DNA from: Verrucomicrobiota bacterium
GTDB lineage: Bacteria > Verrucomicrobiota > Verrucomicrobiia > Limisphaerales > UBA11358
Length of the DNA stretch: 64,000 bases
Direction of reading: 5' to 3'
Assembly (NCBI GenBank): GCA_049522015.1
Contig: JBEKOG010000026.1
Span: forward strand, 3,548 to 67,547
This document shows positions 32,330-53,837 of this stretch, in pieces; within the stretch, counting starts at the first letter, position 1; every line of letters begins with the position of its first letter. Made by a program: the position numbers and the translations under genes. The notes under the pieces were generated by a model. That model did no database searches, was not told where the DNA came from, and worked only from the letters and a program-made list of their open reading frames with translations.

Positions 32330-32644
32330 CTACCGGCAGAGGCTCAACAACGACAGCCCGACGAAGAACAACAAGATTACCAGTGCGCTGATCACGACGC
32401 CAGCAATGGCCGCTGCCCGGTTGCCACCGCGGACCCACCCGCTGATGCTCACAATCAGCGCGACGGGCGGTGTCAGAAATATCGTCAGCCCGCCAAGGGC
32501 CGAAAGGGGCGATCTTCACCCGGGCCGGAGGACCACCATCAGCACCAGAGCCGCAGGCGCAGCGAGCGACAGCCAAAAACCCACCCGCCCCAAGTTTGAA
32601 TGCGGGACTTCCGGCGGAATCTGACCTGGTTCAATCGTTTCCAT
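32330..32644 (-). CDS. Small membrane protein candidate interrupted by an in-frame TGA (selenoprotein candidate or pseudogene)
   Basis: An ATG at 32644 lies 20 nt downstream of the selenoprotein A stop. The frame reads METIEPGQIPPEVPHSNLGRVGFWLSLAAPAALVLMVVLRPG-[TGA 32516-32518]-RSPLSALGGLTIFLTPPVALIVSISGWVRGGNRAAAIAGVVISALVILLFFVGLSLLSLCR-TAG. TM-like sequence lies on both sides of the TGA in one frame. This ORF is not in the ORF track. Confidence 0.3.
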
Positions 32645-32663
32645 GCGAGCGTACCGGTCGGCC

Positions 32664-34199
32664 TTACAACTTCGTATCTATCGGCTTGCTGATCGTCTCC
32701 ACGGGCGCCAGATCGAACTGGACTTTGATGGTGACGGTCTTGCCAGCCAGCTCTTTGGGCACTCGCCATGAGTGCGAACAAACGCCGCCTCAGCCAAACT
32801 CCATGTTGCCCGAAGCCACCTGTTTGCCATCGGCGGTATTGATCGCAAAGGCCGGCTTCGGCGGCTGGCGCAGGTTCCCTTTGTCTCCCTTGAGGAAAAA
32901 GCTTGAATACGTTTCGCCGCCGGCGCCGAGCACGGAAGCCTGGATGAACTGCTGCAACACCGGTTCGGCCCCGGCGTTCCCCCCAAAAACCCAGTCCAGA
33001 AACGATCCGGATTCCGACGCGGTCGAACCACTGTTCCGGTTGTCACGCGCCGACGTGACCTTGACTTCGAGGGGCGCGCCGCACTTGAACGGCGTGGCGG
33101 CGTCAGCCCGTGCCATGGTGGTGTCCTTCGGAGTGCGTTTGTATCCACTGAGAATCAAAGTTTCGCCGGCCGCGTTTTTGACTTTGAGCGTGCAGGTGTA
33201 AAGCCGGTAATTGCCGGACGGCACTTTGGCTTTTCCGTTTTCAACGCCGGGCTGAAGCAGTTGCCATTCGCCGGGTGCGGCTTCCCACGCCACCTGGAGG
33301 CCGTTCACCTGTTCGCCATGCGGTTGCAACGCCAGTTCCGCCAGCGGCCCGGCCCACGGTTCAAGCGCGAGCGATTTGTCGTCGGCCGCCAGAACGGCCT
33401 GGTAGGGTTTCGCACCCAGATACAGCACCGGTCCAAACGGGGCCGATACGCTGCTCCCGATGGAATTTTCGAATTTGCCGGAGCCATCGTTGCCCACGAG
33501 AAAATAATCACCGCCTTGGAAATACCAGTTGGTTTCGGTGCCATTCTGGTAGGTGGTCGGTTGATTGAAATCTCCCAGCCGGAAGTTGCAGTTTCCATCA
33601 ACGATGCCCACTTTCTGCGTCACGCCGTCCAAGTCCACCGTGGTTTCCAGGTACCAGCCCGCCTTGAACCGCAACTGGCCGAGGTAGGAAGTGTTCCTGT
33701 TCGCAACGGCATCTGCGGGCGGCGTGTAGAGATACATCTGGGCAAAATAAATCGGCCGCCACGTGCCAATCATTTTTCCCTCCGGCACCGGGATTGGCCC
33801 AAAGAGTGCGATCTCCGTCCGGTCCGCCGCGGACGTTTGCCTGGGCTGCTCCACCCGCGCGGCCACGGGGTCGTCCGTCAGATCGCCGTTTTGGTTCAGG
33901 TCCACAATCAAACGATCGTAACCCTTGCCATCACCCTTGGATTCATCAATCCGGAACCACAACCGGTTTGTCGAGACGGACATTTGGCCGTAAAGCGGAT
34001 GTTTGGAAATTGCCGGAGGCGCCTTGGTGATGGCGCCGGGTTTGTCGAGCTGCAAGGTTCCGTACAGGCCCGAGCCGCCGGGGAAGGCCATGGCTTCCTC
34101 GGCGTTCAAGGTCTTGAATTCCAGCGGAAAGTCTTTCGCGGGCGCAAGGACTGGGATTGCCAGGAGAACCAGACTCCAAACAAGCATCGTTTTTTTCAT
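32664..34199 (-). CDS. Secreted selenoprotein candidate, paralog A (TGA at 32790-32792 read as Sec)
   Basis: The listed ORF 32790-34199 has the signal peptide MKKTMLVWSLVLLAIPVLAPA and ends ..GNMEFG-TGA. The frame continues GGVCSHSWRVPKELAGKTVTIKVQFDLAPVETISKPIDTKL to a TAA at 32664. The motif and the hairpin are shared with four paralogs. Confidence 0.7.
32759..32792 (-). promoter_or_regulatory. Putative SECIS element, paralog A (UGA plus hairpin)
   Basis: The RNA reads UGA-N14-GCACUC-AUGGC-GAGUGC. Confidence 0.65.
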
Positions 34200-36517
34200 A
34201 ACTGTTCCTGTTCCTTTCGCTGCAATATAGGCTTTTGAGGTTCCAAGTGAAGGAGATTCTTGAGTCGCTCACGGAACAATGGGTTGATCCAAGACAGGAC
34301 CAGGAACGGCAGCAGCGTCGCGAAAATGAGCACCACCATGAACGGCCCGATCCGGAGGAATACGGCGTAATCCACGCTGCCGGGCGAGGCCATCCGGCAC
34401 AAAAAATGGAGCAGCGCCGACGCCGCAACCCAGGCTGTCGGCAGGGACAAGAAAAGCCACAGGCAGAACCACCACGGACGATGGCGCCACCGACAGGCCA
34501 GCCCGGACAAAGCCATGGCCGCAGCGACCACCAAGGCCAGCAGCACCGGCAGAACGAGAAACGGCAACGCCATCTCTCCCACGCCGGCGGTGTCCGTACA
34601 GCGTCGCGGGTCTAAAAGGCTCATGACTGGCTCCACCACCAGACCCCAGCCGGCGGTGGCCGCAAAACTGAAAACGATGAAAATGACCAGGACGGCCAAT
34701 GTGCCCAGGAAAGTGCGGAAGCGATAGCCGCGGCCAAGGTAGGAGGCCAGCAACCAGAGCGCGGCCAACCCAAACGCCAGAGCAACAGGAACGGCCAAAA
34801 TAATTTCGAGCATCCCCTTGGGCAGGCCGGTATTTGAGCTTTGCAATGCCAGTTCCAGACAATGCCACCCGGCCGCCAGACCCGCCAAGGGCAGCCAGAT
34901 CCACCACGCGGACCAGCCGTGATTGGGTTTGAGCGCCAGCAAAGCCAGGATAGCCAGCCACGGCAGCAACGGCGACATCAGGCCCGCTGCCGTCCAATTA
35001 CAAGTGACCACCGGACCTTCCGTGGCACCCAAGCCGCCCAAACCCCGCGAAGCAGCGATTTGGAGTTGGCCAGCCGTCGTCGAGGGTACTCGCCATGAGT
35101 ACGAGCAGAAGCCGTCTCAGCCAAATTCAAACTGGCCCGACCCGATCTGTTTCCCCGACCTGCCAACGGTAAATTGCGGCGGCTTCCAGTCGCTCCCTCT
35201 CACCAGCCAGTATTCTCCACCGCCGGCGCCGATCAATCGGTAGCTGAGAAGCAGGTTCCGTCCGCGGCGGGCGGCGGAGACGCAATTGGTCAACGGCCCG
35301 CCCACGGCCAACACTGCCGGTCGCTGCTCATCCACCACGACCGCCTGCTCCGGTGGCGGCGGACTCACCACCGGCAGTTGCGACCCGGTGATTTCCTCGA
35401 TCACATTCGCCTTCCCGGTTTGCGGCAGGCCGAAATTGAAGTAGGCCTCCGCCTCGCCCTGCTTGAGCCAGACGCGGTAGGGCTGGTATCGGCCGGGGGG
35501 GACCTTTACGCTGGCCGGGGGCTGGGTCAGGACGACCACATACGGCCCGCCCGTCAGGACGAGGCGCTGAATGAAACTGCCGGTGATTTGCAATTCGCCC
35601 AGCGGGGTTTGCTGTTCGGTCAACCGCAGCGCAAGTTTCTCGTCACGGCCTCGCGGCTCGGCGCTCCAGTCCAACTGGCAGGCGTGTCCCTCAAAAAAGA
35701 TCCCGGGCGAAAAGGCGAAGGCGTCCGACGCTCTCACCACCCAGTTCTTCCCTTCCCAGGGAATCGCCAATGTGTCCTCCGGTTTTTCGCTGGAGGCACT
35801 GAACCGTTTGTTTCGCTCCTCCCAGGGACGCAGCAACAATTGGCCGTGCTCGAAAGACCCCGGCTGGCCTGACAGGTTCTGCACCAATCCCACCTGCCAA
35901 TCATGTCCGGCCACGGTCACCTTGCCCTGCCAGAACGAACGTGCCATCACGTTGACCAGCGGTCGCCCGGAATCGCCGTACTGAAAGAAATCGAAATCCA
36001 CCAGCATGGGAGCGCCGGCTGACGTTGCCGGAAAAGAGAGGTGGATGTTCGTGAACACCTGATGATTGAGCGTTGGAAAACGCGGGCCCGTCAGGCTCCC
36101 GTAAAACACCCCGTTCGCATCATCGGTCAAATCCCGGTTGCGATTCAGATCGAGGAAGAGTTTTTTTGCGCCGGTTTGCCAGACGAAAGGAATGGCGTTG
36201 CTGGGGTTGTCGCCAAATTTCAACACCCCGCGAACGACATGACCGGGAGCCAGCGCCGGCTCTTTGGGGAACGGGACCGGTCGGCACTCGATGGAAATAT
36301 TCCGGAACAGAAACTGGTAGCTTGTCTCCTGATACTCCAGCGGAACCGTGGTCACCGTTCCGGATGGAGCAGTGGGCTGGGCGGAATCCTCGCTGCCCGA
36401 AACATTGCCCGGGCAAGACACCGCGATGACGGCCGCCGCCAGCAACGCGGCCCCTGGCCACGTCCAGCCTTTCCGCGGCAGCCAAAGCATCCTTCGCTTT
36501 CTCATAATGGCCGGCAT
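34196..36517 (-). CDS. Selenoprotein candidate, paralog B: exported domain - Sec - polytopic membrane domain (TGA at 35117-35119 read as Sec)
   Basis: The listed ORFs 35117-36517 (466 aa, ends ..GQFEFG-TGA) and 34196-35041 (281 aa, multi-TM) are in the same frame with no other stop between them. The bridge reads DGFCSYSWRVPSTTAGQLQIAASRG. The total is 773 codons. An ATGA overlap joins it to the start of paralog A (34196-34199). Confidence 0.6.
35086..35119 (-). promoter_or_regulatory. Putative SECIS element, paralog B
   Basis: The RNA reads UGA-N14-GUACUC-AUGGC-GAGUAC. Confidence 0.65.
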
Positions 36518-36677
36518 TTCTGATGTCGGAGATTCAATGTCCGGTTAGACCGTACGGTCGGGGAAACGTCACGCGTCACTTTTTTTCACGCGTTGGATTC
36601 AGAATTGCCCATCGTGGCACTTTTCGTCCAGGGCGGCGATGATGCGCCGCACTTGTGCCGCTTCCAGTTTTTCATCC

Positions 36678-37416: not shown

Positions 37417-38958
37417 ATGTCGGACCCAAAACAGGAGCTGCTCTGGAATCTTCCCTCCGTCACCGAATTGCTGAAGAGCGAGACAGTCGCCGGCTGGCTC
37501 CGGCAACAGCCCCTGTCGCTGGTGACCGAGTGTTTGCGCCGCGCCGTCGAAAATTTGCGGCGGCAAATCCTCGATGATCGTGGGACAGGCTTCCAGCCTG
37601 TCTCTGACATCAAAACATCACCCCCTTCGCGCGTTGGCCCGAAGCAGGCGGGTTCATCACCGAACGGCGGGCTGCCGGAAAGAATACGGAGACAGGCTGG
37701 AAGCCTGTCCCACGAAGATTCCGGCGCTCTCGTGCAGGAATTCAACCGCATCGTATTGAGTCAGGCGGGCGAGTTGCTTCGTCAGGCCGTCGAGCCGCGC
37801 GTGCGCGAGGCCATCAACGCCACCGGCATCATTCTCCACACCGGCCTGGGGCGCGCGGTCTTTCCCGGCTGTGTCGTGGATTCGATGATTCCCGGATTGA
37901 AGGGTTACGTGAACCTGGCCGTGGATCGCGATTCCGGCGGGCGCGTTGAACGGGATGAACTGGTCGAACCCCTGTTCACCGAACTCACCGGCGCCGAAGC
38001 CGCCACGGTCGTCAACAACAATGCCGGCGCCACGCTGCTGGTCCTGGCCGCGCTCGCGGCGCGACGCGAAGTCGTCGTTTCGCGCGGCCAGCTCATTGAG
38101 ATCGGCGGTTCCTTCCGGCTGCCCGATGTGATGGCGCAAAGCCGGGCGCGGCTGGTCGAGGTGGGCACGACCAACCGGACGCACCTCAAGGATTATCGCA
38201 ACGCCATCACGGAGAAGACCGCCGCGCTCATGCGCGTGCATCCGAGCAACTACCGCGTCGTCGGTTTCACCAGCGAAGTGCCGCTCGCCGAACTCGCTGA
38301 ACTGGCGCACAGCAAGAATTTGCTTTTGATTGATGATCTCGGAGCGGGCGCGTTGCTGGATTTGCGCCAGTTCGGGCTGCCGCACGAAACGACCGTCCGC
38401 GAATCGATCGAGGCCGGGGCAGACGTGGTTTTGTTCAGCGCCGACAAGCTGATTGGCGCCAATCAGAGCGGAATCATTGTCGGGCGCAAGGAGGCGATTG
38501 CCAAAATCCGAAAGCATCCCCTGATGCGCGCCTTGCGCGTGGACAAGACCTGCATCATGGTTCTGGAACGCACGCTGCATTTGTTCCGCGACCCCGAGTT
38601 GCTCCGCCGCGAGCATCCGACCTATCGCATGATGACCACACCGCCCGACGCGCTCCAGCATCGCGCCGAGGCGTTGGCCCAAGCCATCCGGGAGAAAGCG
38701 CCGCGCGCGAAGGCGGACATTCACGCGAGCCAGGCTTATCTGGGCAGCGGTTCGTTGCCGGAGGAAGCGATTCCCAGCCTGGTCGTGAGCGTCAGCTTGC
38801 CCGGCATGAAAGCCACGGACCTGGCGCGGGCGCTGCGACTGGACCAGGCGTGTGTCTTTGGACGCATCGAACACGAGCGGGTTTTGTTGGATGTGCGGAC
38901 CATCACCGATGTGCAGGTGAAGGCGATTGCCGGGGCGCTGGGGAGAATCGCGGGATGA
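37417..38958 (+). CDS. selA: L-seryl-tRNA(Sec) selenium transferase
   Basis: The start was set at 37417 (MSDPKQELLWNLPSVTELL..). Motifs are 'INATGIILHTGLGRA', 'VNNNAGA', 'SRGQLIEIGGSFRLPDVM', 'VGTTNRTH' and the PLP lysine in 'FSADKLIG'. It contains an in-frame double hairpin (37582-37711). Confidence 0.9.
   Translation: MSDPKQELLWNLPSVTELLKSETVAGWLRQQPLSLVTECLRRAVENLRRQILDDRGTGFQPVSDIKTSPPSRVGPKQAGSSPNGGLPERIRRQAGSLSHEDSGALVQEFNRIVLSQAGELLRQAVEPRVREAINATGIILHTGLGRAVFPGCVVDSMIPGLKGYVNLAVDRDSGGRVERDELVEPLFTELTGAEAATVVNNNAGATLLVLAALAARREVVVSRGQLIEIGGSFRLPDVMAQSRARLVEVGTTNRTHLKDYRNAITEKTAALMRVHPSNYRVVGFTSEVPLAELAELAHSKNLLLIDDLGAGALLDLRQFGLPHETTVRESIEAGADVVLFSADKLIGANQSGIIVGRKEAIAKIRKHPLMRALRVDKTCIMVLERTLHLFRDPELLRREHPTYRMMTTPPDALQHRAEALAQAIREKAPRAKADIHASQAYLGSGSLPEEAIPSLVVSVSLPGMKATDLARALRLDQACVFGRIEHERVLLDVRTITDVQVKAIAGALGRIAG
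37582..37711. repeat. Pair of inverted GACAGGCT-TCC-AGCCTGTC hairpin repeats inside the selA coding sequence
   Basis: The left arm GGGACAGGCTTCCAGCCTGTCTC (37582-37604) and the right arm GGAGACAGGCTGGAAGCCTGTCCC (37688-37711) are reverse complements. They encode ..GTGFQPVS....RQAGSLSH.., a segment that from memory is absent from E. coli SelA. Confidence 0.65.
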
Positions 38959-38975
38959 AGATTCAATTTGAAACC

Positions 38976-39133: not shown

Positions 39134-39142
39134 CTTCTCCTC

Positions 39143-41098
39143 ATGACTTCCCGCCGTAACATCATGCTCGGCACCGCCGGGCACGTGGACCACGGCAAGA
39201 CCGCCCTGGTGAAGATGCTCACCGGCTGCGAGACCGACACGCTGGCCGAGGAAAAACAACGCGGCCTCACCATTGACCTCGGCTTTGCCCCCTGCCAGTT
39301 GTCGGACAAACGCGTGGTCGGCGTCGTGGACGTGCCGGGCCACGTGGATTTCATCCGCAACATGGCCGCCGGCGCGCACGGCATTGACGTCGTCATTTTT
39401 GTCGTCGCGGCGGACGACGGCATCATGCCGCAAACGCATGAGCATCTTCACATTCTCACGCTCATGGGACTGCGCCACGGACTGGTGGCGCTCACCAAGG
39501 TAGATCTCGTTGACCCGGCCCGGCGCAGCTTCGTGATTCAGGACCTGCGGCGGTTGCTCGCGAACACGTTTCTCGCAGAGGCGCCGATTTGTCCGCTCTC
39601 CAACGTCACCGGCGAAGGCTTCGACGGATTTTTCGACGCGTTGAACGAGGTGGTCGCCAAATGTGAAAACCGCCCCTGCTCCGGCTGGTTCCGCATGTGG
39701 GTGGAGGACGTGTTTACGATCCGCGGCTCCGGCACGGTGATCACCGGCATCCCCACCCGGGGACGCGTGCGACCGGGCGACAGTCTGCATCTGCTGCCCG
39801 CCGGTTTGTCCGGACACGTCCGCCGCATGCAGGTCTATGGCGAGGACGCAACGGAGGGACGGGCCGGGGAATGTGTCGCGCTGAACATACCCGAGATTGA
39901 TCATGAAGTGGTGCGGCGCGGCATGGTCTTGTGTGAATCAAATGCCGTGGCCCCGGTAACCATGGCCGAAGCCGAATTGCGAATCCTCGATTCCGTCAAG
40001 GGCAAAATCGCCGACTACCTCGAAGCGCAGTTGCATGTCGGAACGGCGGCGGTGTCAGCCCATTTGGCGATGCTTGAAAACACCGAAATGACCGGTGGCC
40101 AAAAGCAGATGATCCAGCTCCGGCTGGCGGAACCGCTGGCGCTGGCGCCCGGCGAACGATTTGTCGTCCGGGCCAACGTGGCCGGTTCCGGCGTCGCCGG
40201 TCTGACCACGATTGGCGGCGGACAGATTCTCGGCATCGGCAACGTCCGGCTGCGCCGGAAGAAACAGTGGACACTCGATATGCTCGCGGCCCGGCGGGAA
40301 GCCATCGCCGATTCTGCCCGCTGGTGTGAACTGATGTTGCGGGAAAGCGCGCTGCCGATGACCGCCGCCGACCTGCAATTAAAATGCCTGATGCGCACCG
40401 AGGAGATGACGGCAATGCTTGATTCCCTGCGCGCCGAAGATCGCGCGGTCCTGACGCCCGGCGGCGGGTGGCTGCACCGCGATGTCATCCAGAAAACCGC
40501 GACCGATATCCTCGCGGCCATCCAAGCCTTTCATTCCGCCAACCCGCAGCGGGCCGGAATCGGCCGGGATGAACTGCTTGCCACCCTCAAGGCCGACGGC
40601 AAGCTCCTGGATCTGGCCGTGGCGTCGCTGCTCGGGACGAAGCAGATTGAGCACAACGGAAACGTGCTGGCAGGGGCGGGCTGGAGCGCGCGGGTTGTGG
40701 ACCGCGACCAACGCCTGTGCGACCAGATTGCCGCGAAACTGCAGCAGGCCGGCTGGGCGCCGCCCGGCGCTGAGGAACTGGCCGCGGCGCTGGGCGAACC
40801 GTTGCCGCGCGTCAGCGCGATGATGCGACTGCTGGGCGAGCGCGGGATTTTTGTGCGGCTGGATGAGCGTGTCTGGATGCATCGCGACGCCGTGGAGGCC
40901 GGCAAACAAACCGCCTTGAAACTTTTCGCCCGCGCGCCGATGTTCTCCACCATGGACTTCCGCGACGCGCTCGGCGTCAGCCGCAAATATGCCGTGCCGC
41001 TGGTGGATTATTTGGACAAGGTCCGCTTTACCGTCCGTTCCGGAAACAACCGGACGCCGGGAGCGGAAGCAAAGAAGCTGCTCTTGCAGAAGACGTGA
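39143..41098 (+). CDS. selB: Selenocysteine-specific translation elongation factor
   Basis: The start was set at 39143 (MTSRRNIMLGTAGHVDHGKTAL..), with an alternative at 39164. The G motifs are AGHVDHGKT, DVPGH and TKVD. The long C-terminal winged-helix region ends '..SRKYAVPLVDYLDKVRFTVR', as in the SelB mRNA-binding domains. Confidence 0.9.
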   Translation: MTSRRNIMLGTAGHVDHGKTALVKMLTGCETDTLAEEKQRGLTIDLGFAPCQLSDKRVVGVVDVPGHVDFIRNMAAGAHGIDVVIFVVAADDGIMPQTHEHLHILTLMGLRHGLVALTKVDLVDPARRSFVIQDLRRLLANTFLAEAPICPLSNVTGEGFDGFFDALNEVVAKCENRPCSGWFRMWVEDVFTIRGSGTVITGIPTRGRVRPGDSLHLLPAGLSGHVRRMQVYGEDATEGRAGECVALNIPEIDHEVVRRGMVLCESNAVAPVTMAEAELRILDSVKGKIADYLEAQLHVGTAAVSAHLAMLENTEMTGGQKQMIQLRLAEPLALAPGERFVVRANVAGSGVAGLTTIGGGQILGIGNVRLRRKKQWTLDMLAARREAIADSARWCELMLRESALPMTAADLQLKCLMRTEEMTAMLDSLRAEDRAVLTPGGGWLHRDVIQKTATDILAAIQAFHSANPQRAGIGRDELLATLKADGKLLDLAVASLLGTKQIEHNGNVLAGAGWSARVVDRDQRLCDQIAAKLQQAGWAPPGAEELAAALGEPLPRVSAMMRLLGERGIFVRLDERVWMHRDAVEAGKQTALKLFARAPMFSTMDFRDALGVSRKYAVPLVDYLDKVRFTVRSGNNRTPGAEAKKLLLQKT

Positions 41099-46554: not shown

Positions 46555-46651
46555 TGGCGGAGGCGGATGGGAATCGAACCCACCTGGGACTTTGTTGAGC
46601 CCCACACTGGTTTTGAAGACCAGGAGCGCCACCAGGTCGCCTTACACCTCC
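46555..46651 (-). tRNA. selC: tRNA-Sec (anticodon UCA)
   Basis: The reverse complement reads GGAGGTGTAAGGCGACCTGGTGGCGCTCCTGGTCTTCAAAACCAGTGTGGGGCTCAACAAAGTCCCAGGTGGGTTCGATTCCCATCCGCCTCCGCCA. It is 97 nt long, with the anticodon loop CT-TCA-AA, a long variable arm (GGGGCT..AGTCCC), the T-loop GGTTCGATTCC, an extended acceptor stem, discriminator G and CCA. Confidence 0.9.
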
Positions 46652-47014: not shown

Positions 47015-50000
47015 TCACTGCGGCAATTTCTTGATCTGCACATCCAGTTCGTCGAGCGAAAAACCTTCCGCGATTACACGATGATTGGCGTCGGTGAGGA
47101 TCAACCACGGCAATGCGGGAACGGCCGAGGCCCATTTTGATTTTTCGGATTTCTCCGTCACCCGCCCGACCGGGAATAATACCGGACTGGCGGTTTTCCA
47201 TTCATTGAAAGTTTCATCGCTGGTGACTGCGGCTTGAACACCCAGCACCATAACGCCTTTCTGCCGGAGTGCGGCGGCCTGTTCATTCAACTGGTGGACC
47301 ACATGCCGCGACGGGCGCTGGCTCGCGTCGAACAGGCACACCAACACCGGCTTGCCGGCGGGCGCGGTGTCGCTGGCGAGATTCACCGTTACCAAATCGG
47401 GCAGCGGACTGCCTTTGAGCGAGGCGCGATGCGGTGTCTGGGGCATATTCCCCGGCTGGGAATTCAAGGTCATCACGACGTTGGTGTCGCCCGCTTCGAC
47501 CGTAGCCTGCGCGTTGCCACCGCCGTTTTGCGAATAGGCAAACAGGCGGATTTGTCCCTCGCAAATCTGGAAATGAAAACGACCCTGACTGTCGGTGGTC
47601 ATGTAACCCTCCGGCTGGTCTTCGCCGCTTAATTGCACGTTCGCGCCGGACGCCGGTTTGTCGTCATCTTTCAACACCTTTCCGGCGATGACGCGGTCGG
47701 CGAGCTTGAGGACGAACGGTGACAGTTCCATGCGATTTGTTTCGGAGTCGTTTTGGATTTGCTGCTGGCTTCGACCGTGGCCTTTGGCGGTGGCGAAAAC
47801 AGTGTATTGCGCGTCCGGCGGCAGGCATTTGATTTCGTAGCGGCCTTGCTCATCGGCGGCAGCCATTTGTTCATTCAATTGTTCGTAGCTGTTGCCCGCC
47901 CTGAGCCACACGCCGACCTGCGCGCCGGCGAGGGGAGACCCGTCAACGAATTTTACCAGCCCGGCCAGGGTCAGGGCCGGTTTCAATTTCACGTCGAGGT
48001 TCGTGGTTTCCTCCGGCAACTCTTCGGTGGCTCCCAAGTTGCGAACCGGGTCACGGACAACCAGCAGTGCGCCGCCCGACTGCATTTGCCACGGCTGGAG
48101 CGACCAGGTGAGGCTGAACGCGCCGTTGGTTGCGGTCTTTGTCCAGCGCCGCGAACCGTTGGACGGAAATACCGCCACCTGCGCGCCGTCGGCGGGTTTG
48201 CCATCGGCATCCGTCACCATGCCTTTGAGTTTGTGCGCCGCGGAACCGGGGGAGCTGTTGTAAGTTTGACCGAGCCGCAGAACGACATTCGTGTCGCCGC
48301 CTTCGGCTGAAATGTTGCCGAAGGAACGCTGGCTGTTGGCGGAGATTTGAGCCGGGCCTTCGCAGACATGCTCGAAGCGGAATCGTCCCTCGCGATCCGT
48401 CCGCACATTGCCGCCGGGCTGTCCGTCACCGTTAAGATTCACGTAGGTGCCCGCGACCGGCTTGTCGTCGGCGTCGAGCACCTGGCCGGCGAGTTTGAGA
48501 TTCGCTGGCTTGAGTTCCATGGGATCAAGTTCCTGACGGATGGCATCGGCGGAGATGTCGAGATTTTGCATCTGCCGCTGCCCGTAACCCGGCGCGGAGA
48601 CGATGACGCCATATTTTCTGCCGGGCGGCAGCGCGGGAATTTCATACTGTCCCGGCGTGTTGGTGCGGGCCAGACCTTGAAGCCACGAACCGCTGCGGCC
48701 GGTCCAGAAAACGAGCGAGGCGGTCGCGTTGGTGACCGGTTTGCCGTCGGATTCCGCCCGGCCGGCCAGCGTCAGTCCCGGCGCGAGTTTCAAATCGAGC
48801 GGGCCGGTGTCTTCGTCAATGTCCTGCGCCACGGCCAGATTGTGTTCCACGTCCCGAACCAGAATGCAGGCGGTTGTGTCGTTTTGTCCGAATCGGCGCT
48901 GGTTCCATTCCAACTCAAATTTTCCGCCGGCATCGGTCTTGACTTCGGCGTCCCCGGGACCAAAACCACCCACAATTCTCACCGGCAGTCCCGCCGCCGG
49001 CTGGCCGTCCGGCTGGCGGATAATGCCGGTGATTTTCTGCGGCGCGGCGATTTCAATCTCCACTCGGTTCGTCTTGCCGGCTTCCACGCTGGCGGAAGTC
49101 TGGTTGGCAGGCATGGATTCACGGGACGCCATCACCTGATAATCACCGGGCGGCAGCCTCAGGAGGGCGACGCCGTTGCTATCGGAACGGGCGGCGGATT
49201 GAAAGTTTTCCCGGTAAGCATTAACCATGACTTGCGCCAGCAGTTTGTGGTCGTTCTTTCCGAGCACGGCCACTTCCAGCAAACCGCCGCGCGCCGCAGC
49301 CACCTGCACGCCGCGCGTGGTTTGTCCGGATTCAACCGAAACTGGAATCGCGTCCGCGACCCATTCCGGAACAGCGTTGGTGCCGAAGACGGCCTGAATA
49401 CGGTAGGAACCTGCGGGCACGTCGCTGATGCGGAACGCGCCGTCCACGCCGGATTGCGCCGGCTCGCGTTCGCCAAACGCGAAAAAACCCGGGTTGTCTG
49501 GCTGCAACATCAACCGCGCGACGGGCGGCGGTTGATTGCTTTCCGCAACGATGATTTTACCTTCGACGCTGCCGGCGGATTCCACGACCAATTTGATGTC
49601 GTCCTGGCCCGCGCGCCAGGGCAGCGAATCGAAACCGGCAAATTCCTGCGATGATGGGCGCAGAGCTTTTCCCGGCGCCTGAACCGCAAGTGCGGCGGTG
49701 GCATTGGTCGGAAAATTTTCGATGCGGAAACGGCCGGCGGCGTCCGTCCGAGCGGCAAAACAATCGTGCGCGGGTTTGCCAAGGAAATAATTAAGACTCC
49801 GCTCTCCGCCTTCCCGCGAAATTTCGCAGAAGGCCGTGGCCACGGAAACCTCGGCGTTGGCGACAGGTTTGTCCGCTTCGTCCACCACCATGCCCGCCAG
49901 CACCGCCGGCGGAGTCAGCACCAGACGTTCTTCCCCGTCACGGACGGAATTAAACGGCTGGCCCAACTGTTTCCATGCCGGGGCCAGTCCCGGCTTTTTC

Positions 50001-50326
50001 GCCAGCAGAAATCCCATCGCCCGCGGCACTTGAAATTCAAAAGTGCCGTTGGTGCCCGTGGTGATTTGTTTTTTCAGTTCCAGATGATCCGTCAGGAACA
50101 GCCTTCCCTCGTAGCGCCAATACTCCACCGTCGCGCCGGCAAGGGGGCTGCCGGCGGTGTCGGTGATCGTCCCGGAACAGTTGAGTTCTTGCGCGCCGGC
50201 ATTGGTGCCGGTGTCCGGCGCTCTTTGAATAATGGCCTGCAGCCGTTGCTGCGTTTGGGCGAGCACGCCAAAGCTCGCAAACACAGAAACGGCAGAAACC
50301 AGAAGGAATTGCCGTGTCATTTTCAT
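47015..50326 (-). CDS. Secreted protein with multiple carboxypeptidase-regulatory-like domains and a C-terminal thioredoxin-fold (TlpA-like, no CxxC) domain
   Basis: The 1103-aa ORF has a signal peptide. It carries about 10 repeats of the 'G.V.D..GKP..GA.V' type. The C-terminus 'GKPVLVCLFDASQRPSRHVVHQLNEQAAALRQKGVMVLGVQ...PWLILTDANHRVIAEG' looks like a redoxin fold in which the CxxC is replaced. It lies 12 nt downstream of paralog D. Confidence 0.65.
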   Translation of the reverse strand: MKMTRQFLLVSAVSVFASFGVLAQTQQRLQAIIQRAPDTGTNAGAQELNCSGTITDTAGSPLAGATVEYWRYEGRLFLTDHLELKKQITTGTNGTFEFQVPRAMGFLLAKKPGLAPAWKQLGQPFNSVRDGEERLVLTPPAVLAGMVVDEADKPVANAEVSVATAFCEISREGGERSLNYFLGKPAHDCFAARTDAAGRFRIENFPTNATAALAVQAPGKALRPSSQEFAGFDSLPWRAGQDDIKLVVESAGSVEGKIIVAESNQPPPVARLMLQPDNPGFFAFGEREPAQSGVDGAFRISDVPAGSYRIQAVFGTNAVPEWVADAIPVSVESGQTTRGVQVAAARGGLLEVAVLGKNDHKLLAQVMVNAYRENFQSAARSDSNGVALLRLPPGDYQVMASRESMPANQTSASVEAGKTNRVEIEIAAPQKITGIIRQPDGQPAAGLPVRIVGGFGPGDAEVKTDAGGKFELEWNQRRFGQNDTTACILVRDVEHNLAVAQDIDEDTGPLDLKLAPGLTLAGRAESDGKPVTNATASLVFWTGRSGSWLQGLARTNTPGQYEIPALPPGRKYGVIVSAPGYGQRQMQNLDISADAIRQELDPMELKPANLKLAGQVLDADDKPVAGTYVNLNGDGQPGGNVRTDREGRFRFEHVCEGPAQISANSQRSFGNISAEGGDTNVVLRLGQTYNSSPGSAAHKLKGMVTDADGKPADGAQVAVFPSNGSRRWTKTATNGAFSLTWSLQPWQMQSGGALLVVRDPVRNLGATEELPEETTNLDVKLKPALTLAGLVKFVDGSPLAGAQVGVWLRAGNSYEQLNEQMAAADEQGRYEIKCLPPDAQYTVFATAKGHGRSQQQIQNDSETNRMELSPFVLKLADRVIAGKVLKDDDKPASGANVQLSGEDQPEGYMTTDSQGRFHFQICEGQIRLFAYSQNGGGNAQATVEAGDTNVVMTLNSQPGNMPQTPHRASLKGSPLPDLVTVNLASDTAPAGKPVLVCLFDASQRPSRHVVHQLNEQAAALRQKGVMVLGVQAAVTSDETFNEWKTASPVLFPVGRVTEKSEKSKWASAVPALPWLILTDANHRVIAEGFSLDELDVQIKKLPQ

Positions 50327-50337
50327 GGGATGTTTAA

Positions 50338-51615
50338 TTATTTTTTTGCTTCAAGCGTCAACGGACTCGTCAGCACCTGGAACGGGCTGAAAATTTTGAT
50401 GTTGCCAACCAACGGACGCTGAACATTTTTGGGCTCCCGCCATGAGAGCGAACAAACGCCGCCTCACCCAAACTCGAACGTGTTCGTATAACACAACGTC
50501 CCGTCGGCATTGGCCAGCATCAATTTCGGCCCGCGCGGGCGCTGCCCGTCACGCAGCATCTCGATGGATTCCTTCTGTTGCCCCACGAAACTGAGGTTGA
50601 AGGCGACCTGGCGGTTGGGGTTCTCGGTCGCCTTGAGCACGGCTTGCACCGGCTCGCCGATTTCCAGCACGGCAGTTTTGTCGGCAGCGACCTCGAACCC
50701 GGCGGTTTTGGGGAAATTATAGCCGGACAGCGTCCACGCCGCGCCTTTTTCATCCTTGCGATTGATCGTCCAGCGAAAGATCCGGTAATTGCCCGCCGGC
50801 AGGGTGAATTCGCCGTTCACCGGCTGGCGCACGAAATGGCCGTTCCCGCCGAACGCGGCGAATTCGGAAATGTTTTCCGGCACGCGCACCTGGCCGAGCG
50901 TGATCCCGCCGGGCGGGACCTTTTGCACCTTGACGAACGCGCCGTCGCGGGCGGCTTCGATCCGGAAAAGCTTTCCGTCCACTTCCAGCATTTTGCCCAA
51001 AAAACGTTCGCCGGTCTTGTCGCCCTCGACCTGGACGCGGTCGCTGTCATAAGGATCCGGTGCGACGTCGTTAAACGTGCCGTTGACGTTGCCGTCAATC
51101 AGTTGGATGCGTTTTTTCACGCCGTCGAAATTCACCACGCCTTCATACCAGCCGGCGGACGATGCCAGCAATTGCGCGGGACTCTTTTCGTATTGATAGA
51201 ACCGGAACACGAGATGATAGGTGATCGGCCCGTCCTCGCCCTTGAAAACAACGGGGGCCGGCGGAAAAAAGGCGAAGTAGGAATCCAGTCGCGCCTGGAT
51301 GGGCGTTTTGTCGTCCAGCCGGCCATTGCCGTTGCTGTCAATGTACAGCCGGTCATACGGCCCGGACTTGCGTGTGCGGTCGAAGCAGAGCCAGCGGCCG
51401 CCGGCGGGGTCCATCGGCGTGGACCAGCGCGCGAAATAGGGCGGCGCGTTCAGCTTGGGCAGGGCGACGCCGGGTGGCGGATTGGTGGTCAGTTCCATCT
51501 GGTGGTAGGCGCGGCCCTCGGCGCTGGTATGGTATTCCAGCCACTGCTCGGTTTGCGCGAACGCGGTGCCGGCGAGAACCATTCCGGCCAGAATCAATTT
51601 TCTGGAAAGTTTCAT
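50338..51615 (-). CDS. Secreted selenoprotein candidate, paralog D (TGA at 50464-50466 read as Sec)
   Basis: The listed ORF 50464-51615 has the signal peptide MKLSRKLILAGMVLAGTAFA and ends ..NTFEFG-TGA. The frame continues GGVCSLSWREPKNVQRPLVGNIKIFSPFQVLTSPLTLEAKK to a TAA at 50338-50340. Confidence 0.7.
50433..50466 (-). promoter_or_regulatory. Putative SECIS element, paralog D
   Basis: The RNA reads UGA-N14-GCUCUC-AUGGC-GGGAGC. Confidence 0.65.
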
Positions 51616-51646
51616 GATGTTAAGGTTGGCTTTTTGTTCATCAAGT

Positions 51647-53749
51647 TCAAGCTTTCAATTGGTCGTCGGGCAAAGGCGCATTCAGTGGCGGCGGGGCCTC
51701 CGGTTTCACGTGCAGCAACGCCTTGAGCCGTTCGCGGAAAAGTGAGTTGGCGGAAGACAGAACCAGGAACGGGAACAGCGTGACGAACCCGGCTGCCGTC
51801 AGAACCAAAACCACGACGAAGAATTCCTGCCACGGCAACCGACCACCCGAAACAATCATTGCGAAGGCAAAGACCGGTGTGAGAATCACCAGCCAAAGCG
51901 CCAGCAGTGACAGGAAGATCCAGAGGTACAGCCCCAAGGGACGATAGCGACCCCGGCAGGCCAGCCCGGCTAAAAAGATGGCCAGCGCAACCACAAGAAC
52001 GCTGAGGGCCAGCGGAACCAGCATCACCAATACCAGGGAGGCCCCGTCCACGGTCCAATCCTGTCTGACCAAAAAACTGAAAAGGCTGAAGCCCGCCAAG
52101 GTGGGCGCGAGGCACAGGAAAGTGACGAGCCGATGGCTGCGCGCCAGTTGGTGCGCCAGCAGCCAGACGGCGGCAACGCCAAAGGCCAGCGAACCCGCCA
52201 TCTCAAGAAACATGTCTGCCGTGCCCGAGGGCAGAAATTCAAAGGCTGACTGCGACAATTGTTCCATGGCCGCCACACATCCGAGGGGCAGCCAGATCCA
52301 CCATGCCCGGCCGCAACGGTTTGGCTTGGTCAATAACAGCAGCAAAACCGCCAGCCACGGCAGAAATGAAGGGATGAGACTGGGGACCGTCCAATGGTAA
52401 CTGACCGGATCGCCTTCCTTCGCACCGAGGCCTCCGAGATCGGAAACGGCCACGATCTTCAGTTCACCGGCGGACGTGAGAGGCACTCGCCATGAGTGCG
52501 AACAGGTGCCGCCTCAGCCAAATTCGAATTTGCCCGACACGATTTTCCTGTCGCCCTTGTACACCGCGAACTCCGGCGGCTGGGAGCGATTTTGATTTGC
52601 CAGTTGGTAGGTTTCGCCGCCCGCACCAACCAGTCGGTAATCAAGGCGCAAATCCCGCCCGTGACGGCTGGCAGTGACGGAATTGGTCAACGGCCCGCCC
52701 GCGTCCAACACCGCCGGGGTCTTGTCATCCACGGAAATCCGCCAGCCAACTAGCGTTAGGCCGGGATTGCAGAAGGCCTCGGCGCCATTTTGTTCCAGCA
52801 GGATGTCGGGTCGGTTGTAGCTGCCGGTCGGGACTTTTACGCTGGCTGCCGGTTGATCGAGCACCACGAGATACGGTCCGCCCGACAAGACAAGCCGTTG
52901 AATAAATTTGCCGGCGATTTTCAATTCGCCAAGCGGGACGGTTTGTTCCGTGAATTGGAGGGCGGGCTTCGCTTCGCCGTCCTGCGGTCTGGCCACCAGG
53001 TCCAGTTGATAGGCGTGGCCGTCAACAAAAAGTTTCCGTGAAAAGGGAACGGTGACGAGCGAACCATCGTAGGTGTTGAATGACTGGTTTCGTTTTTCCC
53101 AGGGACGCAGCAGCAACCGGCCGTTCTCGAACGAACCCGATTGGTTCAAGCCATTTTGGACGATGCCCACCTGCCAGTCCTGTCCTTGCAACGTCACCTT
53201 GCCCTGCCAGAACGAGCGCAACGCGAGGTTGCAACTCGGTCGCGGAAGGTTGTCATAGAAGGTGATGTCCGCCAGCACCTGGCATTTGCCGGATGCGGTG
53301 TTGAAAAGCAGGTGGATGTTCGTGAACGTCTGATAATAAACCGTCCTCGCTGTGCGCGCCAAAAAAACGCCGGAGGGATCGTCGGTCAAATCCTGGTTGT
53401 GATTGAGGTCGAGGTAAAGTTTTCCGGCGGCTCGGTCCCAGGCAAAAGCGATTGAATTGCTGTCGCTGCCGCCGGGCTGGAAGGTGCCGCGCACAACTTT
53501 GTTCCCGGCGAACGCCGGTTCCTTTGTGAACGGGGTGGATCGATTGACAACCGGGAGGCCGCAGTTAATTAAGCCATACCCGACCTCGCTATAATCGAGA
53601 TGGGCTGTTTGAATCTGTCCGGATTGAGAATTCGCGGCAGCCGTCGCTTCGCCGCCGGAGGCGGCATTGACCATGAAGCTCGCTCCGAAGAGAAACACAC
53701 CCAAAAAGACCACGCCTGACCGGATGATTTCTTTCAGCGCCGAACTCAT
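51647..53749 (-). CDS. Selenoprotein candidate, paralog E: exported domain - Sec - polytopic membrane domain (TGA at 52514-52516 read as Sec)
   Basis: The listed ORFs 52514-53824 (ends ..GKFEFG-TGA) and 51647-52486 (279 aa, multi-TM) are in frame, separated only by GGTCSHSWR. The likely start is 53749 (MSSALKEIIRSGVVFLGVFLFGASFMVNA), with alternatives at 53779 and 53824. It is about 50% identical by eye to paralog B in both domains. Confidence 0.6.
52483..52516 (-). promoter_or_regulatory. Putative SECIS element, paralog E
   Basis: The RNA reads UGA-N14-GCACUC-AUGGC-GAGUGC. Confidence 0.65.
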
Positions 53750-53837
53750 GGTTATCCAGTTTGTCGCCGTGATTGGCATTACAGCGGGTCGTGGCCTGTC
53801 AAGCAAGCAGATTCCTTCGCGCAAAAACGCGGCGCGT

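What the first reader, a model, noticed from the sequence alone, without database searches (positions are those of the whole stretch)
32330..53824. Selenium island: selA, selB, selD and selC surrounded by five paralogous exported proteins carrying an in-frame UGA in a conserved F-G-U-x-G-x-C motif
Five ORFs with signal peptides or signal anchors all terminate at TGA at the same alignment position, and all stay open in frame afterwards.

- A (32664-34199): ..GNMEFG-U-GGVCSHSWRVPKELAGKTVTIKVQFDL..
- B (34196-36517): ..GQFEFG-U-DGFCSYSWRVPSTTAGQLQIAASRGL..
- C (43547-45127): ..GVMPFG-U-DGTCGYSWRVPNDLKLDGKEETFTVQVLYDTL..
- D (50338-51615): ..NTFEFG-U-GGVCSLSWREPKNVQRPLVGNIKIFSPFQVL..
- E (51647-53749): ..GKFEFG-U-GGTCSHSWRVPLTSAGELKIVAVSDL..

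A Cys is invariant four residues after the TGA, giving U-x-x-x-C. An alternating-hydrophobic, strand-like pattern is also conserved after the hairpin region, which argues that the downstream sequence is translated. The complete Sec-decoding machinery sits among these genes: selA 37417-38958, selB 39143-41098, selD 41593-43299 and tRNA-Sec 46555-46651. The N-terminal domains of about 380-470 aa share a single DxNxNxDLTDD-like loop (DLNQNGDLTDD, DLNRNRDLTDD, DSNGNGRLDD, DANRDLDLRND, DLNHNQDLTDD). Otherwise they match no family I can name. I am not aware of a described selenoprotein family with this motif. Exported bacterial selenoproteins are uncommon.
Basis: partly seen in the sequence, partly recalled or inferred. 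Interest (0 to 1): 0.95.

Follow-up and report, generated by a model that had tools for sequence, protein, structure and literature searches.

The report
New Sec-only exported selenoprotein family
Five neighbouring genes for exported proteins each carry a UGA codon that is almost certainly read as selenocysteine; they belong to a very large family, found mainly in Planctomycetota and Verrucomicrobiota, that I could not find in any catalogue and that has no detectable cysteine version.

Summary
Five paralogues (A-E) each have one in-frame TGA inside an invariant [FY]-G-U-x-G-x-C-x-x-S-W-R-x-P motif. They lie beside selA, selB, selD and tRNA-Sec.

A 6-bp hairpin with an RUGGC loop starts 14 nt after each UGA. 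It fits the bacterial SECIS model and shows compensatory changes across 150 homologues. Synonymous sites inside it are frozen.

A scan of 185,579 species genomes accepted TGA, TGC or TGT at that codon. It gave about 142 true members, and all of them were TGA. A motif-plus-tail profile found no Cys-containing or full-length protein among 5.8 billion predicted proteins.

The N-terminal profile finds 3,693 cluster representatives. Nearly all of the listed ones are cut at this exact stop. Reading continues in frame: tail lengths are conserved, third codon positions vary most, and Laminin_G_3 and F5/8-C domains lie downstream.

selA, selB and tRNA-Sec are hugely enriched next to family members in several phyla. 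Pfam, NCBIfam, the PDB and a 2026 list of 119 prokaryotic selenoprotein families contain nothing matching.

Verdict: these are genuine genes of a previously uncatalogued, Sec-obligate family of envelope selenoproteins. The biochemical role is inferred only. I favour a selenenylsulfide redox or chalcogen-transfer centre working with a NapH-like ferredoxin and a Cys-less thioredoxin-like domain.

The parts
32664..34199 (-). Paralogue A (A-type): signal peptide, about 469-aa all-beta ectodomain, Sec (UGA 32790-32792), 41-aa tail. 511 aa when read through.
   Evidence: Orthologues L001-L004, L009, L056 and L059 have TGA plus the same tail. AF2 model pLDDT 85.8.
34196..36517 (-). Paralogue B (B/E-type): ectodomain, Sec (UGA 35117-35119), short beta segment, then a polytopic membrane domain. 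773 aa when read through.
43547..45127 (+). Paralogue C (C-type): N-terminal signal anchor, MPFG-U-DGTCGYSWRVP motif, Sec (UGA 44975-44977), 49-aa tail.
   Evidence: 19 of 24 C-type homologues have exactly 49 tail codons.
50338..51615 (-). Paralogue D (D-type, CSLSWREPKNV): signal peptide, Sec (UGA 50464-50466), 41-aa tail.
   Evidence: D-type homologues in Planctomycetota continue in frame into F5/8-C and Laminin_G_3 domains.
51647..53749 (-). Paralogue E (B/E-type): signal peptide, Sec (UGA 52514-52516), 288-aa tail with about 7 TM helices.
32759..32775 (-). SECIS-like hairpin of A (GCACUC-AUGGC-GAGUGC), nt 18-34 counted from the U of UGA.
35086..35102 (-). SECIS-like hairpin of B (GUACUC-AUGGC-GAGUAC).
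44992..45008 (+). SECIS-like hairpin of C (GUACUC-AUGGC-GGGUAC; a further G-C pair extends the stem).
50433..50449 (-). SECIS-like hairpin of D (GCUCUC-AUGGC-GGGAGC). Relative to A the A-U pair is flipped to U-A, which changes His to Leu and Val to Glu in the protein.
52483..52499 (-). SECIS-like hairpin of E (GCACUC-AUGGC-GAGUGC).
37417..38958 (+). selA (the ORF is open from 37246).
   Evidence: TIGR00474 512 bits; PF03841.
39143..41098 (+). selB (the ORF is open from 38999).
   Evidence: TIGR00475 326 bits; SelB winged-helix domains.
41593..43299 (+). selD, Cys form (GCASK), fused to an AhpD/CMD domain with a CHPC motif.
46555..46651 (-). tRNA-Sec (selC), anticodon UCA.
45147..46037 (-). NapH/NosR-like membrane polyferredoxin (Fer4_5 x2). 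It is the last gene of the minus-strand series E-D-giant-selC-NapH.
   Evidence: Homologues lie next to family members in 13-14 loci. Same gene order in L125.
47015..50326 (-). 1103-aa exported protein with CarboxypepD_reg repeats and a C-terminal Cys-less thioredoxin-fold-like domain (QRPSR at the CxxC position).
   Evidence: Homologues in 17-18 loci.
54616..56766 (+). DsbD-type thiol:disulfide reductase. It is a neighbour here and in L023 only, so it is probably not a core part.

Best explanation
The five genes are genuine selenoprotein genes.

Shown or strongly supported:
- The ribosome reaches the in-frame UGA. A 6-bp hairpin with an RUGGC loop lies 14 nt downstream of it.
- The adjacent selA, selB, selD and selC genes supply the Sec-decoding machinery. 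In the canonical mechanism SelB-GTP-Sec-tRNA(Sec) binds such a hairpin, Sec is inserted and translation continues.
- The products are exported all-beta, multi-domain envelope proteins. The Sec sits in a glycine-rich loop, [FY]-G-U-G-G-x-C-x-x-S-W-R-x-P, between two strands of the last beta domain.
- Three products are soluble or N-terminally anchored (A, C, D). Two are fused to a roughly 7-helix membrane domain (B, E).
- They are members of a very large family, mostly from Planctomycetota and Verrucomicrobiota, that is not in the catalogues I could search. Every member examined has UGA and no Cys form is detectable.

Inferred, about 0.3-0.4:
- Sec and the Cys four residues later form a selenenylsulfide or selenol-thiol centre that carries out extracytoplasmic redox or chalcogen-transfer chemistry.
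- This centre works with the co-conserved operon partners: the CarboxypepD_reg giant protein, whose C-terminal thioredoxin-fold-like domain has QRPSR instead of CxxC, and a NapH-like polyferredoxin that could supply quinol-derived electrons.
- The substrate is unknown.
For: UGA and motif:
- One TGA per gene, at the same alignment column.

Conservation of the stop:
- 116 of 120 homologues from the word-indexed search end at [ML]E[FY]G.
- 140 of 146 further homologues from the exhaustive search end at x[FYWL]G.
- The family has 3,693 representatives at E<=1e-3 and 2,021 at E<=1e-10.
- Nine homologue loci reached through protein look-ups (the truncated N-terminal products or, for L125, the separately called tail), not through a DNA pattern that fixes the stop, all have TGA plus the motif.

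Sec versus Cys:
It gave 143 TGA and 2 TGC. Both TGC matches and one TGA match are noise.
- A Cys-coded peptide pattern found no relative.
- The motif-plus-tail profile found nothing in 5.8e9 proteins.

SECIS:
- Stem columns 18-23/29-34 are 97-100% paired.
- Pair 19-33 is UA 75, CG 41, UG 29. Pair 20-32 is AU 111, UA 24, GU 5, GC 2.
- The covariation score is 0.279 against 0.136 for shuffles (0 of 500 reach it). Controls in which the pairing is slid by 1-3 columns score at most 0.10.
- Third codon positions 18, 21, 24, 30 and 33 are fixed or purine-only, whereas position 36 is free. Arg is CGA in 135 of 150 sequences despite about 60% G+C.
- The loop is GUGGC in 108 and AUGGC in 40 of 150. Spacing is 20 nt. 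MFE is <=-7.5 in 148 of 150. These fit the criteria quoted in PMC13188914.

Translation of the tail:
- Tail lengths are conserved (41 codons in A-type, 49 in C-type).
- Differences by codon position run 3rd > 1st > 2nd.
- Laminin_G_3 (E 7e-31) and F5/8-C domains lie in frame downstream.
- B/E membrane domains are always directly downstream of the motif. They are currently called as separate ORFs that start inside it.

Linkage to the Sec machinery, within 8-kb loci:
- selA in 18-23 loci, selB in 20-21, selD in 8.
- 8 of the 15 tRNA genes found in these loci are tRNA-Sec.
- The whole island order is conserved in L125 and L001.

Partners:
- NapH-like in 13-14 loci and the giant protein in 17-18 loci.
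- The QRPSR thioredoxin-like domain is conserved across phyla.

No known family:
- Pfam and NCBIfam give nothing.
- PDB by fold and by sequence gives nothing.
- Nothing matching is in the table of 119 families.
Against: - There is no experimental evidence of selenium incorporation.
- All related sequences are from metagenome-assembled genomes.
- No Cys homologue exists, so the usual Sec/Cys-pair criterion is not met.
- In 40 of 150 sequences, including all five here, the loop is AUGGC. The G is then at loop position 3, not 1-2, unless A24/C28 is treated as closing the loop.
- For the isolated 42-mer the MFE structure contains the full stem in only 81 of 150 cases. An alternative helix that involves the UGA competes with it.
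- The functional part rests only on motif chemistry and gene neighbourhood. DsbD is a neighbour in only 2 loci. The membrane domain has no conserved Cys pair. The thioredoxin-like match is below the Pfam cut-off.
- The literature search covered only open-access PMC and bioRxiv, so a description elsewhere cannot be excluded.
Confidence: 0.88

Rival explanations
1. The TGA codons are real stops. The proteins end at ...E[FY]G, the hairpin is a regulatory or coupling element, and the downstream sequences are separate genes (as current gene calls have it for the B/E tails) or untranslated.
For: Public gene calls do end at the TGA. They call the B/E tails as separate roughly 273-aa ORFs that start at a GTG or ATG inside the motif.
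Against: - The stretch between the UGA and that putative start (G-G-x-C-x-x-S-W-R) is invariant at the protein level in frame with the upstream ORF.
- A-, C- and D-type tails of 41-49 codons have conserved length and a coding-like substitution pattern.
- Pfam domains continue in frame.
- The stop is TGA in all nine homologue loci reached by protein look-ups, which did not fix the stop codon. TAA or TAG was never seen.
- selA, selB and tRNA-Sec are strongly enriched alongside.
Confidence: 0.03
2. The UGA is translated but not as Sec, for example through genome-wide reassignment to Trp or Gly, or near-cognate read-through.
For: UGA-to-Trp reassignment exists in some Verrucomicrobiota (abstract of PMC13462651).
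Against: - TGA also ends genes here. B and E terminate at TGA, and 67 family tails end in TGA.
- The recoded UGA occurs at one position per gene, always followed by the covarying hairpin.
- A tRNA-Sec and selA, selB and selD are adjacent here and in other phyla.
- No homologue has TGG, or any other sense codon, at this site.
Confidence: 0.03
3. Functional rival: Sec and Cys form a two-coordinate soft-metal site (Cu(I), Hg(II), Ag(I), Cd(II)). The paralogues would then be envelope metal chaperones or sequestration proteins, not redox catalysts.
For: - The loop is glycine-rich, with two chalcogen ligands four residues apart.
- Several catalogued bacterial selenoproteins are metal-binding or metal-transport proteins (PMC13188914 Table 1).
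- Relatives of the NapH-like protein include the cupric reductase CcoG. This is from my own knowledge and was not tested.
Against: - No metal-resistance or transport genes are among the recurrent neighbours.
- No further conserved His, Met or Cys ligands are present.
- The invariant S-W-R-x-P and the thioredoxin-like partner fit exchange chemistry better.
Confidence: 0.2
4. Functional rival: the Se-S bond is structural or acts as a cross-link. The proteins would be envelope or adhesin scaffold components, in which selenium stabilises a loop or links subunits.
For: - The architecture is all-beta and multi-domain.
- Some D-type members carry lectin-like F5/8-C and Laminin_G_3 domains.
- The family is associated with a giant repeat protein.
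Against: A purely structural bond would be expected to tolerate Cys, yet no Cys form exists among thousands of members. The conserved link to a ferredoxin-type membrane protein suggests electron transfer.
Confidence: 0.12

Closest known systems
Canonical bacterial selenoprotein genes decoded through a bSECIS just after the UGA (e.g. fdhF/FdhA)
   Same: - In-frame UGA.
- A stem-loop with G-containing apical loop 20 nt downstream.
- Dependence on selA, selB, selC and selD.
- Tight genomic linkage to the sel genes. The literature reports the same for fdhA in Proteobacteria (PMC4807772).
   Different: - The protein is unrelated.
- It is exported and non-metalloenzyme-like, and no cofactor-binding domain was detected.
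- Up to five paralogues occur per locus.
- FdhA has Cys forms; this family has none.
Glycine reductase selenoprotein A (GrdA)
   Same: It is reported as having no known Cys-containing homologues (PMC1794560). It is therefore a Sec-obligate family.
   Different: GrdA is small and cytoplasmic, has a CxxU motif and belongs to a defined reductase complex in Clostridia and other groups. There is no sequence or architectural similarity.
Exported thioredoxin-fold selenoproteins (DsbA-like, DsbG-like, thiol:disulfide interchange, TlpA-like; UxxC or UGC)
   Same: They are extracytoplasmic and have Sec close to a resolving Cys. They are presumed to carry out selenenylsulfide exchange chemistry.
   Different: - The spacing here is U-x-x-x-C, in a loop of a beta-sandwich-like domain, not at the N-terminus of a thioredoxin helix.
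- There is no thioredoxin Pfam or NCBIfam match.
- Those families have abundant Cys homologues.
- Here the thioredoxin-like fold sits, Cys-less, on a partner protein.
SoxY sulfur-carrier protein (GGCGG arm on an Ig-like domain). This is an analogy from my own knowledge.
   Same: It is a periplasmic beta-sandwich that presents a glycine-flanked chalcogen nucleophile able to carry covalently bound species.
   Different: SoxY uses Cys at the extreme C-terminus and works with SoxZ, SoxAX and SoxB. No homology was detected and no sox genes are nearby.
Recently defined selenoprotein families with NCBIfam exception models (TsoA/B/C/X/Y, Sao proteins, FCYXU TonB receptor, hypothetical proteins DG/DW/DF)
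   Same: They are computationally defined, often envelope-associated, and clustered with other selenoprotein genes.
   Different: None of their HMMs matches A-E at E<=0.1. 'Hypothetical protein DG' shares only the trivial GUxG string and comes from Desulfosediminicola.

Membership tests
Bacterial selenoprotein gene (Sec-UGA plus bSECIS) | In-frame UGA at a position conserved among orthologues and paralogues | tested here: met
Bacterial selenoprotein gene (Sec-UGA plus bSECIS) | bSECIS as defined in PMC13188914 Fig. 2: 4-16 bp stem, 3-9 nt loop, 16-37 nt spacing, MFE <= -7.5 kcal/mol | tested here: met
   The stem is 6 bp (7 bp in 65 of 146), the loop 5 nt, the spacing 20 nt, and the MFE is <=-7.5 in 148 of 150. 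Covariation exceeds all 500 shuffles.
Bacterial selenoprotein gene (Sec-UGA plus bSECIS) | [quoted passage not shown] | tested here: inconclusive
   Met for GUGGC (108 of 150). For AUGGC (40 of 150, including all five here) it is met only if A24/C28 closes a UGG triloop.
Bacterial selenoprotein gene (Sec-UGA plus bSECIS) | Sequence downstream of the UGA conserved as protein in the same frame | tested here: met
Bacterial selenoprotein gene (Sec-UGA plus bSECIS) | selA, selB, selC and selD present in the same genome | tested here: met
   Met in the window. Also met in L001 and L125 and in many 8-kb loci. Whole-genome presence could not be checked for the remaining homologues.
Bacterial selenoprotein gene (Sec-UGA plus bSECIS) | Cys-containing homologues aligned with the Sec (the usual computational criterion) | tested here: not met
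   None found. GrdA is the precedent for a family without them.
Bacterial selenoprotein gene (Sec-UGA plus bSECIS) | Selenium demonstrated in the protein | not testable with these tools
   This needs 75Se labelling or mass spectrometry.
Any catalogued selenoprotein or protein family (Pfam-A, NCBIfam r20, 119 families in PMC13188914) | Significant match to the family model or shared Sec motif | tested here: not met
   All database homologues carry no precomputed Pfam domain.
Thioredoxin-fold thiol:disulfide oxidoreductase selenoproteins | Thioredoxin fold with a UxxC or CxxU active site | tested here: not met
   The AF2 model is all-beta. The motif is U-x-x-x-C. There is no thioredoxin family hit.
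DsbD/CcdA-like transmembrane electron relay (considered for the B/E membrane domain) | Two conserved membrane-embedded Cys, and homology to DsbD_TM | tested here: not met
   Only one Cys is conserved (29 of 36). There is no Pfam hit and no fold match.
CarboxypepD_reg / prealbumin-like domain (considered for the Sec domain) | Profile similarity to the repeats of the neighbouring 1103-aa protein | tested here: not met
   hhalign probability 0.3%.

The most novel reading that the evidence does not exclude
Selenium may be chemically indispensable here. Under this reading the family is the main reason why many Planctomycetota, Verrucomicrobiota and allied anaerobes keep the Sec machinery. The U-G-G-x-C loop would perform an extracytoplasmic, selenium-specific reaction that sulfur cannot replace. 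It would form a new envelope redox or chalcogen-transfer pathway, made of several selenoprotein paralogues, a Cys-less thioredoxin-like receptor domain and a NapH-like quinol-linked ferredoxin.
Probability: 0.35. Interest if true: 0.9.

Novelty: new member of a known kind. Interest (0 to 1): 0.8.

Why it matters
- **Scale.** If confirmed, this would be one of the largest bacterial selenoprotein families: 3,693 representatives at 50% identity, often several paralogues per genome. It is absent from current catalogues and domain libraries.
- **Annotation.** Thousands of genes in public data are truncated at the UGA or split in two. The B/E tails are annotated as separate hypothetical proteins.
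- **Why the Sec trait persists.** The family gives a concrete candidate for what maintains Sec decoding in the Planctomycetota, Verrucomicrobiota and related lineages that dominate peat, sediment and groundwater MAGs.
- **Sec versus Cys.** A second Sec-obligate family besides GrdA would make the long-standing question "why Sec rather than Cys?" experimentally approachable in a new structural setting.
- **Method.** It shows a blind spot of prediction pipelines that require Sec/Cys pairs.

Tried and rejected
- **Known families.** Pfam and NCBIfam scans of the five read-through proteins (U replaced by C) gave no hits.
- **Sequence search of the PDB.** Profiles of the full-length proteins (A1) and of the Sec domain (A7) gave only noise.
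- **Fold search of the PDB.**
  - The AF2 model of A residues 1-469 gave a best E of 0.09 and TM <=0.14.
  - The E-tail model gave a best E of 0.8.
  - Both were whole-chain searches of multi-domain models, so single-domain similarities may have been missed.
- **Structure of the Sec loop.** Full-length proteins could not be submitted, because the tool rejects translations that contain a stop and also rejects edited sequences. The Sec loop itself was therefore never modelled.
- **Rfam.** No SECIS family match; only tRNA-Sec was found.
- **Cys homologues.** Three independent searches were negative.
- **DsbD-like relay in the B/E membrane domain.** Rejected, because only one Cys is conserved across phyla.
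- **Sec domain as a CarboxypepD_reg repeat.** Rejected.
- **DsbD as a core partner.** Rejected, because it is adjacent only here and in L023.
- **Fragmented HGD-D, selA and selB genes in L001 as extra selenoproteins.** More likely indel errors of a long-read assembly. Not pursued.
- **Neighbourhood clustering.** It was contaminated by long antisense ORFs typical of high-G+C DNA. Only clusters with recognisable proteins were used.
- **Literature.** Four searches found no description of the motif or the family.

Full report
**1. Observation**

Each contains exactly one internal in-frame stop, always TGA, and reading continues to a later stop. The continuations are 41 codons (A, D), 49 codons (C), and 306 and 288 codons (B, E).

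The protein alignment has F, G, U, G, C, S, W, R and P as invariant columns around the TGA. Upstream it has an invariant D..N of the DxNxNxDLTDD loop. A DNA pattern for the motif occurs five times in the window, against 0 in 100 shuffles.

The Sec machinery is confirmed:
- tRNA-Sec: ARAGORN and Rfam, 71.4 bits.
- selA, selB and selD all score well above the curated NCBIfam cut-offs.
- selD is the Cys form (GCASK) and is fused to an AhpD/CMD domain.

Read directly, the N-termini look like signal peptides (A, D, E) or signal anchors or a possible lipobox (B, C). No predictor was run.

**2. Is the UGA decoded?**

(a) *The stop position is conserved across a very large family.*
- A profile of the five proteins found 291 proteins in the word-indexed search. 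Of the 120 listed, 116 end at [ML]E[FY]G, the residue before the UGA, down to about 46% identity.
- An exhaustive HMMER search of 1.84 billion cluster representatives with the N-terminal profile gave 3,693 hits at E<=1e-3, 2,021 at E<=1e-10 and 461 at E<=1e-30. Of 146 new top hits, 140 end in x[FYWL]G. The six exceptions look like fragments or frameshifts.
- Homologue loci fetched through protein look-ups, which puts no constraint on the stop codon, all have TGA followed by the motif. These are L001-L004, L125-L127, L130 and L131. They include variants outside my DNA pattern, such as U-G-N-T-C and ...SWQEP.

(b) *Sec versus Cys.*
- I scanned 185,579 species genomes with a pattern that accepts TGA, TGC or TGT at the critical codon.
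- It gave 143 TGA and 2 TGC. Both TGC matches and one TGA match lie in frames full of stops and are noise. About 142 true members therefore all have TGA.
- A Cys-coded peptide pattern found no relative.
- A profile of the motif plus tail (U replaced by C) found nothing among 5.8 billion proteins.
- The family therefore has no detectable Cys form, and no form with any other sense codon.

(c) *Hairpin.*
- In 150 distinct sequences, a 6-bp stem (nt 18-23 with 29-34, counted from the U of UGA) closes an RUGGC loop.
- The pairs are 97-100% intact and they covary. Pair 19-33 is UA 75, CG 41, UG 29. Pair 20-32 is AU 111, UA 24, GU 5, GC 2.
- No shuffle out of 500 reaches the observed covariation score. 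Controls with the pairing slid by 1-3 columns are far lower.
- The compensations cross codons. His (CAC), Tyr (UAC) or Leu (CUC) at one position goes with Val-GUG, Val-GUA or Glu-GAG four codons later.
- Third codon positions inside the hairpin are fixed or purine-only. Arg is CGA in 135 of 150 sequences despite about 60% G+C. The first third position after the hairpin is free.
- Spacing (20 nt), loop size and energy fit the bSECIS model quoted in PMC13188914.
- Two caveats apply. The AUGGC loops, which include all five here, put the G at loop position 3. An alternative helix involving the UGA often wins the MFE of the isolated 42-mer.

(d) *The tail is translated.*
- Tail lengths are conserved: 41 codons in A-type, and 49 codons in 19 of 24 C-type members.
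- Substitutions beyond the hairpin fall mostly on third positions: 0.41-0.48, against 0.20-0.28 on second positions.
- In Planctomycetota, D-type members continue in frame into F5/8 type C and Laminin_G_3 domains (E 7e-31).
- The B/E membrane domain is always directly downstream. In public data it exists only as roughly 273-aa 'hypothetical proteins' whose called start is the Val codon of S-W-R-V-P.

(e) *Linkage to the Sec machinery.*
- In the 8-kb loci around family members, selA occurs in 18-23 loci, selB in 20-21 and selD in 8.
- Eight of the 15 tRNA genes in these loci are tRNA-Sec.
- For single-copy genes in genomes of several Mb, about 0.2 loci would be expected by chance (my arithmetic).
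- The linkage holds in Phycisphaerae, Pirellulales, Verrucomicrobiota, Sumerlaeota/BRC1 and Riflebacteria.
- L125, a 4.64-Mb contig, reproduces the island order: E, D, giant protein, NapH-like, selD-CMD, selB, selA.

Taken together, I consider Sec decoding established as far as sequence analysis can establish it.

**3. What the proteins are**

An AF2 model of A residues 1-469 is confident (pLDDT 85.8, pTM 0.82). It is entirely beta and has several domains. The Sec would lie in the loop after the last modelled strand. Two further strands would come from the tail. This is inferred from the alternating pattern of the tail, because the loop itself could not be modelled.

The E tail is predicted as a short beta segment plus about 7 TM helices (pLDDT 72.8). 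Neither model, and no sequence profile, matches anything in the PDB. Pfam and NCBIfam are silent.

The tails define subtypes:
- A-type: short tail.
- B/E-type: membrane domain.
- C-type: MPFG-U...CGYSWRVP...ETFT.
- D-type: CSLSWREPKNV, sometimes with lectin-like domains and a C-terminal anchor.
- A Phycisphaerae type: CRYSWRVP..FKGKFQVQVDIDLGPFE.

Several paralogues are often adjacent, for example L071, L095 and L096.

All related loci are MAGs. Most are Planctomycetota and Verrucomicrobiota (including Kiritimatiellia). A few are Sumerlaeota, Hydrogenedentota, Riflebacteria, Zixibacteria and Acidobacteriota. The window itself is closest to Verrucomicrobiota MAGs (L023, L059).

**4. How it probably works**

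Decoding follows the canonical SelB/bSECIS mechanism. This is established knowledge, and the parts are all present.

The biochemical role is inferred from four observations:
- Sec and an invariant Cys four residues later, in a Gly-rich exported loop, would form a selenenylsulfide in the periplasm. The invariant S-W-R-x-P follows.
- The conserved minus-strand series is E, D, giant protein, tRNA-Sec, NapH-like (window and L125).
- The NapH/NosR-type polyferredoxin recurs in 13-14 loci. The giant protein recurs in 17-18 loci.
- The giant protein ends in a thioredoxin-fold-like domain. The matches (AhpC-TSA E 1e-4, Thioredoxin_8 E 5e-3) are below the Pfam cut-offs. Its CxxC position reads Q-R-P-S-R, and this motif is conserved from Verrucomicrobiota to Planctomycetota.

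I therefore favour, at about 0.3-0.4, an extracytoplasmic redox or chalcogen-transfer centre. The selenoprotein loop would supply the reactive residues. The Cys-less thioredoxin-like domain would be a docking partner. The NapH-like protein would be the electron link to the membrane.

The rivals are a soft-metal site (about 0.2) and a structural or cross-linking role (about 0.12). The total absence of Cys forms argues that selenium itself is needed. That fits catalysis or ligation better than a structural role.

**5. Comparison with what is known**

The recoding mechanism is ordinary. The protein family is not in Pfam-A or in NCBIfam release 20. It is not in the table of 119 prokaryotic selenoprotein families of the 2026 review PMC13188914.

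The only superficially similar motif entry, 'hypothetical protein DG', GUxG, is from Desulfosediminicola. Its model does not hit A-E.

The lack of Cys homologues parallels GrdA (PMC1794560). The review stresses that nearly all selenoenzymes have abundant Cys homologues. Prediction pipelines that require Sec/Cys pairs, together with the MAG-only distribution, plausibly explain why the family was missed. That explanation is my inference.

My literature search covered only open-access PMC and bioRxiv. I leave about a 10% chance that the family has been described elsewhere.

**6. Verdict**

It is a new, very large, Sec-obligate family within a known kind of system, namely bSECIS-decoded bacterial selenoproteins.
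- Confidence that these are genuine selenoprotein genes of an uncatalogued family: about 0.88.
- Confidence in the proposed biochemical role: about 0.3-0.4.
- Interest: 0.8.

Noticed in passing
window 47015-47450 (C-terminal ~145 aa of the 1103-aa protein, minus strand): This is a thioredoxin/AhpC-like fold domain whose match is below the Pfam cut-off. Its CxxC position is replaced by a Q-R-P-S-R motif. The motif is strongly conserved in orthologues next to D-type selenoprotein genes in both Verrucomicrobiota and Planctomycetota.
   Followed up: partly
window 25326-32096 (+): This cluster holds a double-cubane-cluster anaerobic reductase (NF040772, 404 bits), a DVU_1556/ArsM-like methyltransferase (27947-28816), two HgdD-like ORFs (28958-29932, 29686-31314) and a BcrAD/BadFG activase (31311-32096). 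HgdD-like and activase genes recur beside family members or sel genes in 9-15 loci of other phyla. This may be a second selenium-associated module.
   Followed up: partly
window 41593-43299 (+): SelD is fused to a C-terminal AhpD/CMD domain with a CHPC motif, and it has Cys (GCASK) rather than Sec at its active site. Full-length matches to the fused protein are seen in L029, L036, L038 and L053; the SelD gene of L125 carries the same CMD domain.
   Followed up: partly
window 41204-41581 (+): A 125-aa ORF between selB and selD has no family match and no tblastn match in the related loci.
   Followed up: partly
window 51647-52486 and 34196-35041 (-): The membrane domains of E and B correspond to hundreds of database entries annotated as separate roughly 273-aa hypothetical proteins. 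Two are labelled 'MnhE subunit' by JGI. This is a systematic mis-annotation caused by the Sec codon.
   Followed up: yes
window 32751-32792 and equivalents (first 24 nt after each UGA): An alternative helix pairs UGAG (nt 1-4) with CUCA (nt 21-24). It competes with the SECIS stem in MFE predictions of the isolated RNA. Whether it has any role, for example occluding the UGA before the ribosome arrives, is unknown.
   Followed up: no
L001 (contig ERZ25039538:contig_19690), 1-17000: The selA, selB and HGD-D genes are called as fragments in this long-read assembly. These are probably indel errors rather than recoding. They are a warning for gene-length statistics drawn from such MAGs.
   Followed up: no
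L125 5327-8161: An ECF sigma factor and a Ser/Thr-kinase-domain protein lie directly upstream of the E-type gene in the 4.64-Mb contig. They are possible regulators of the operon.
   Followed up: no
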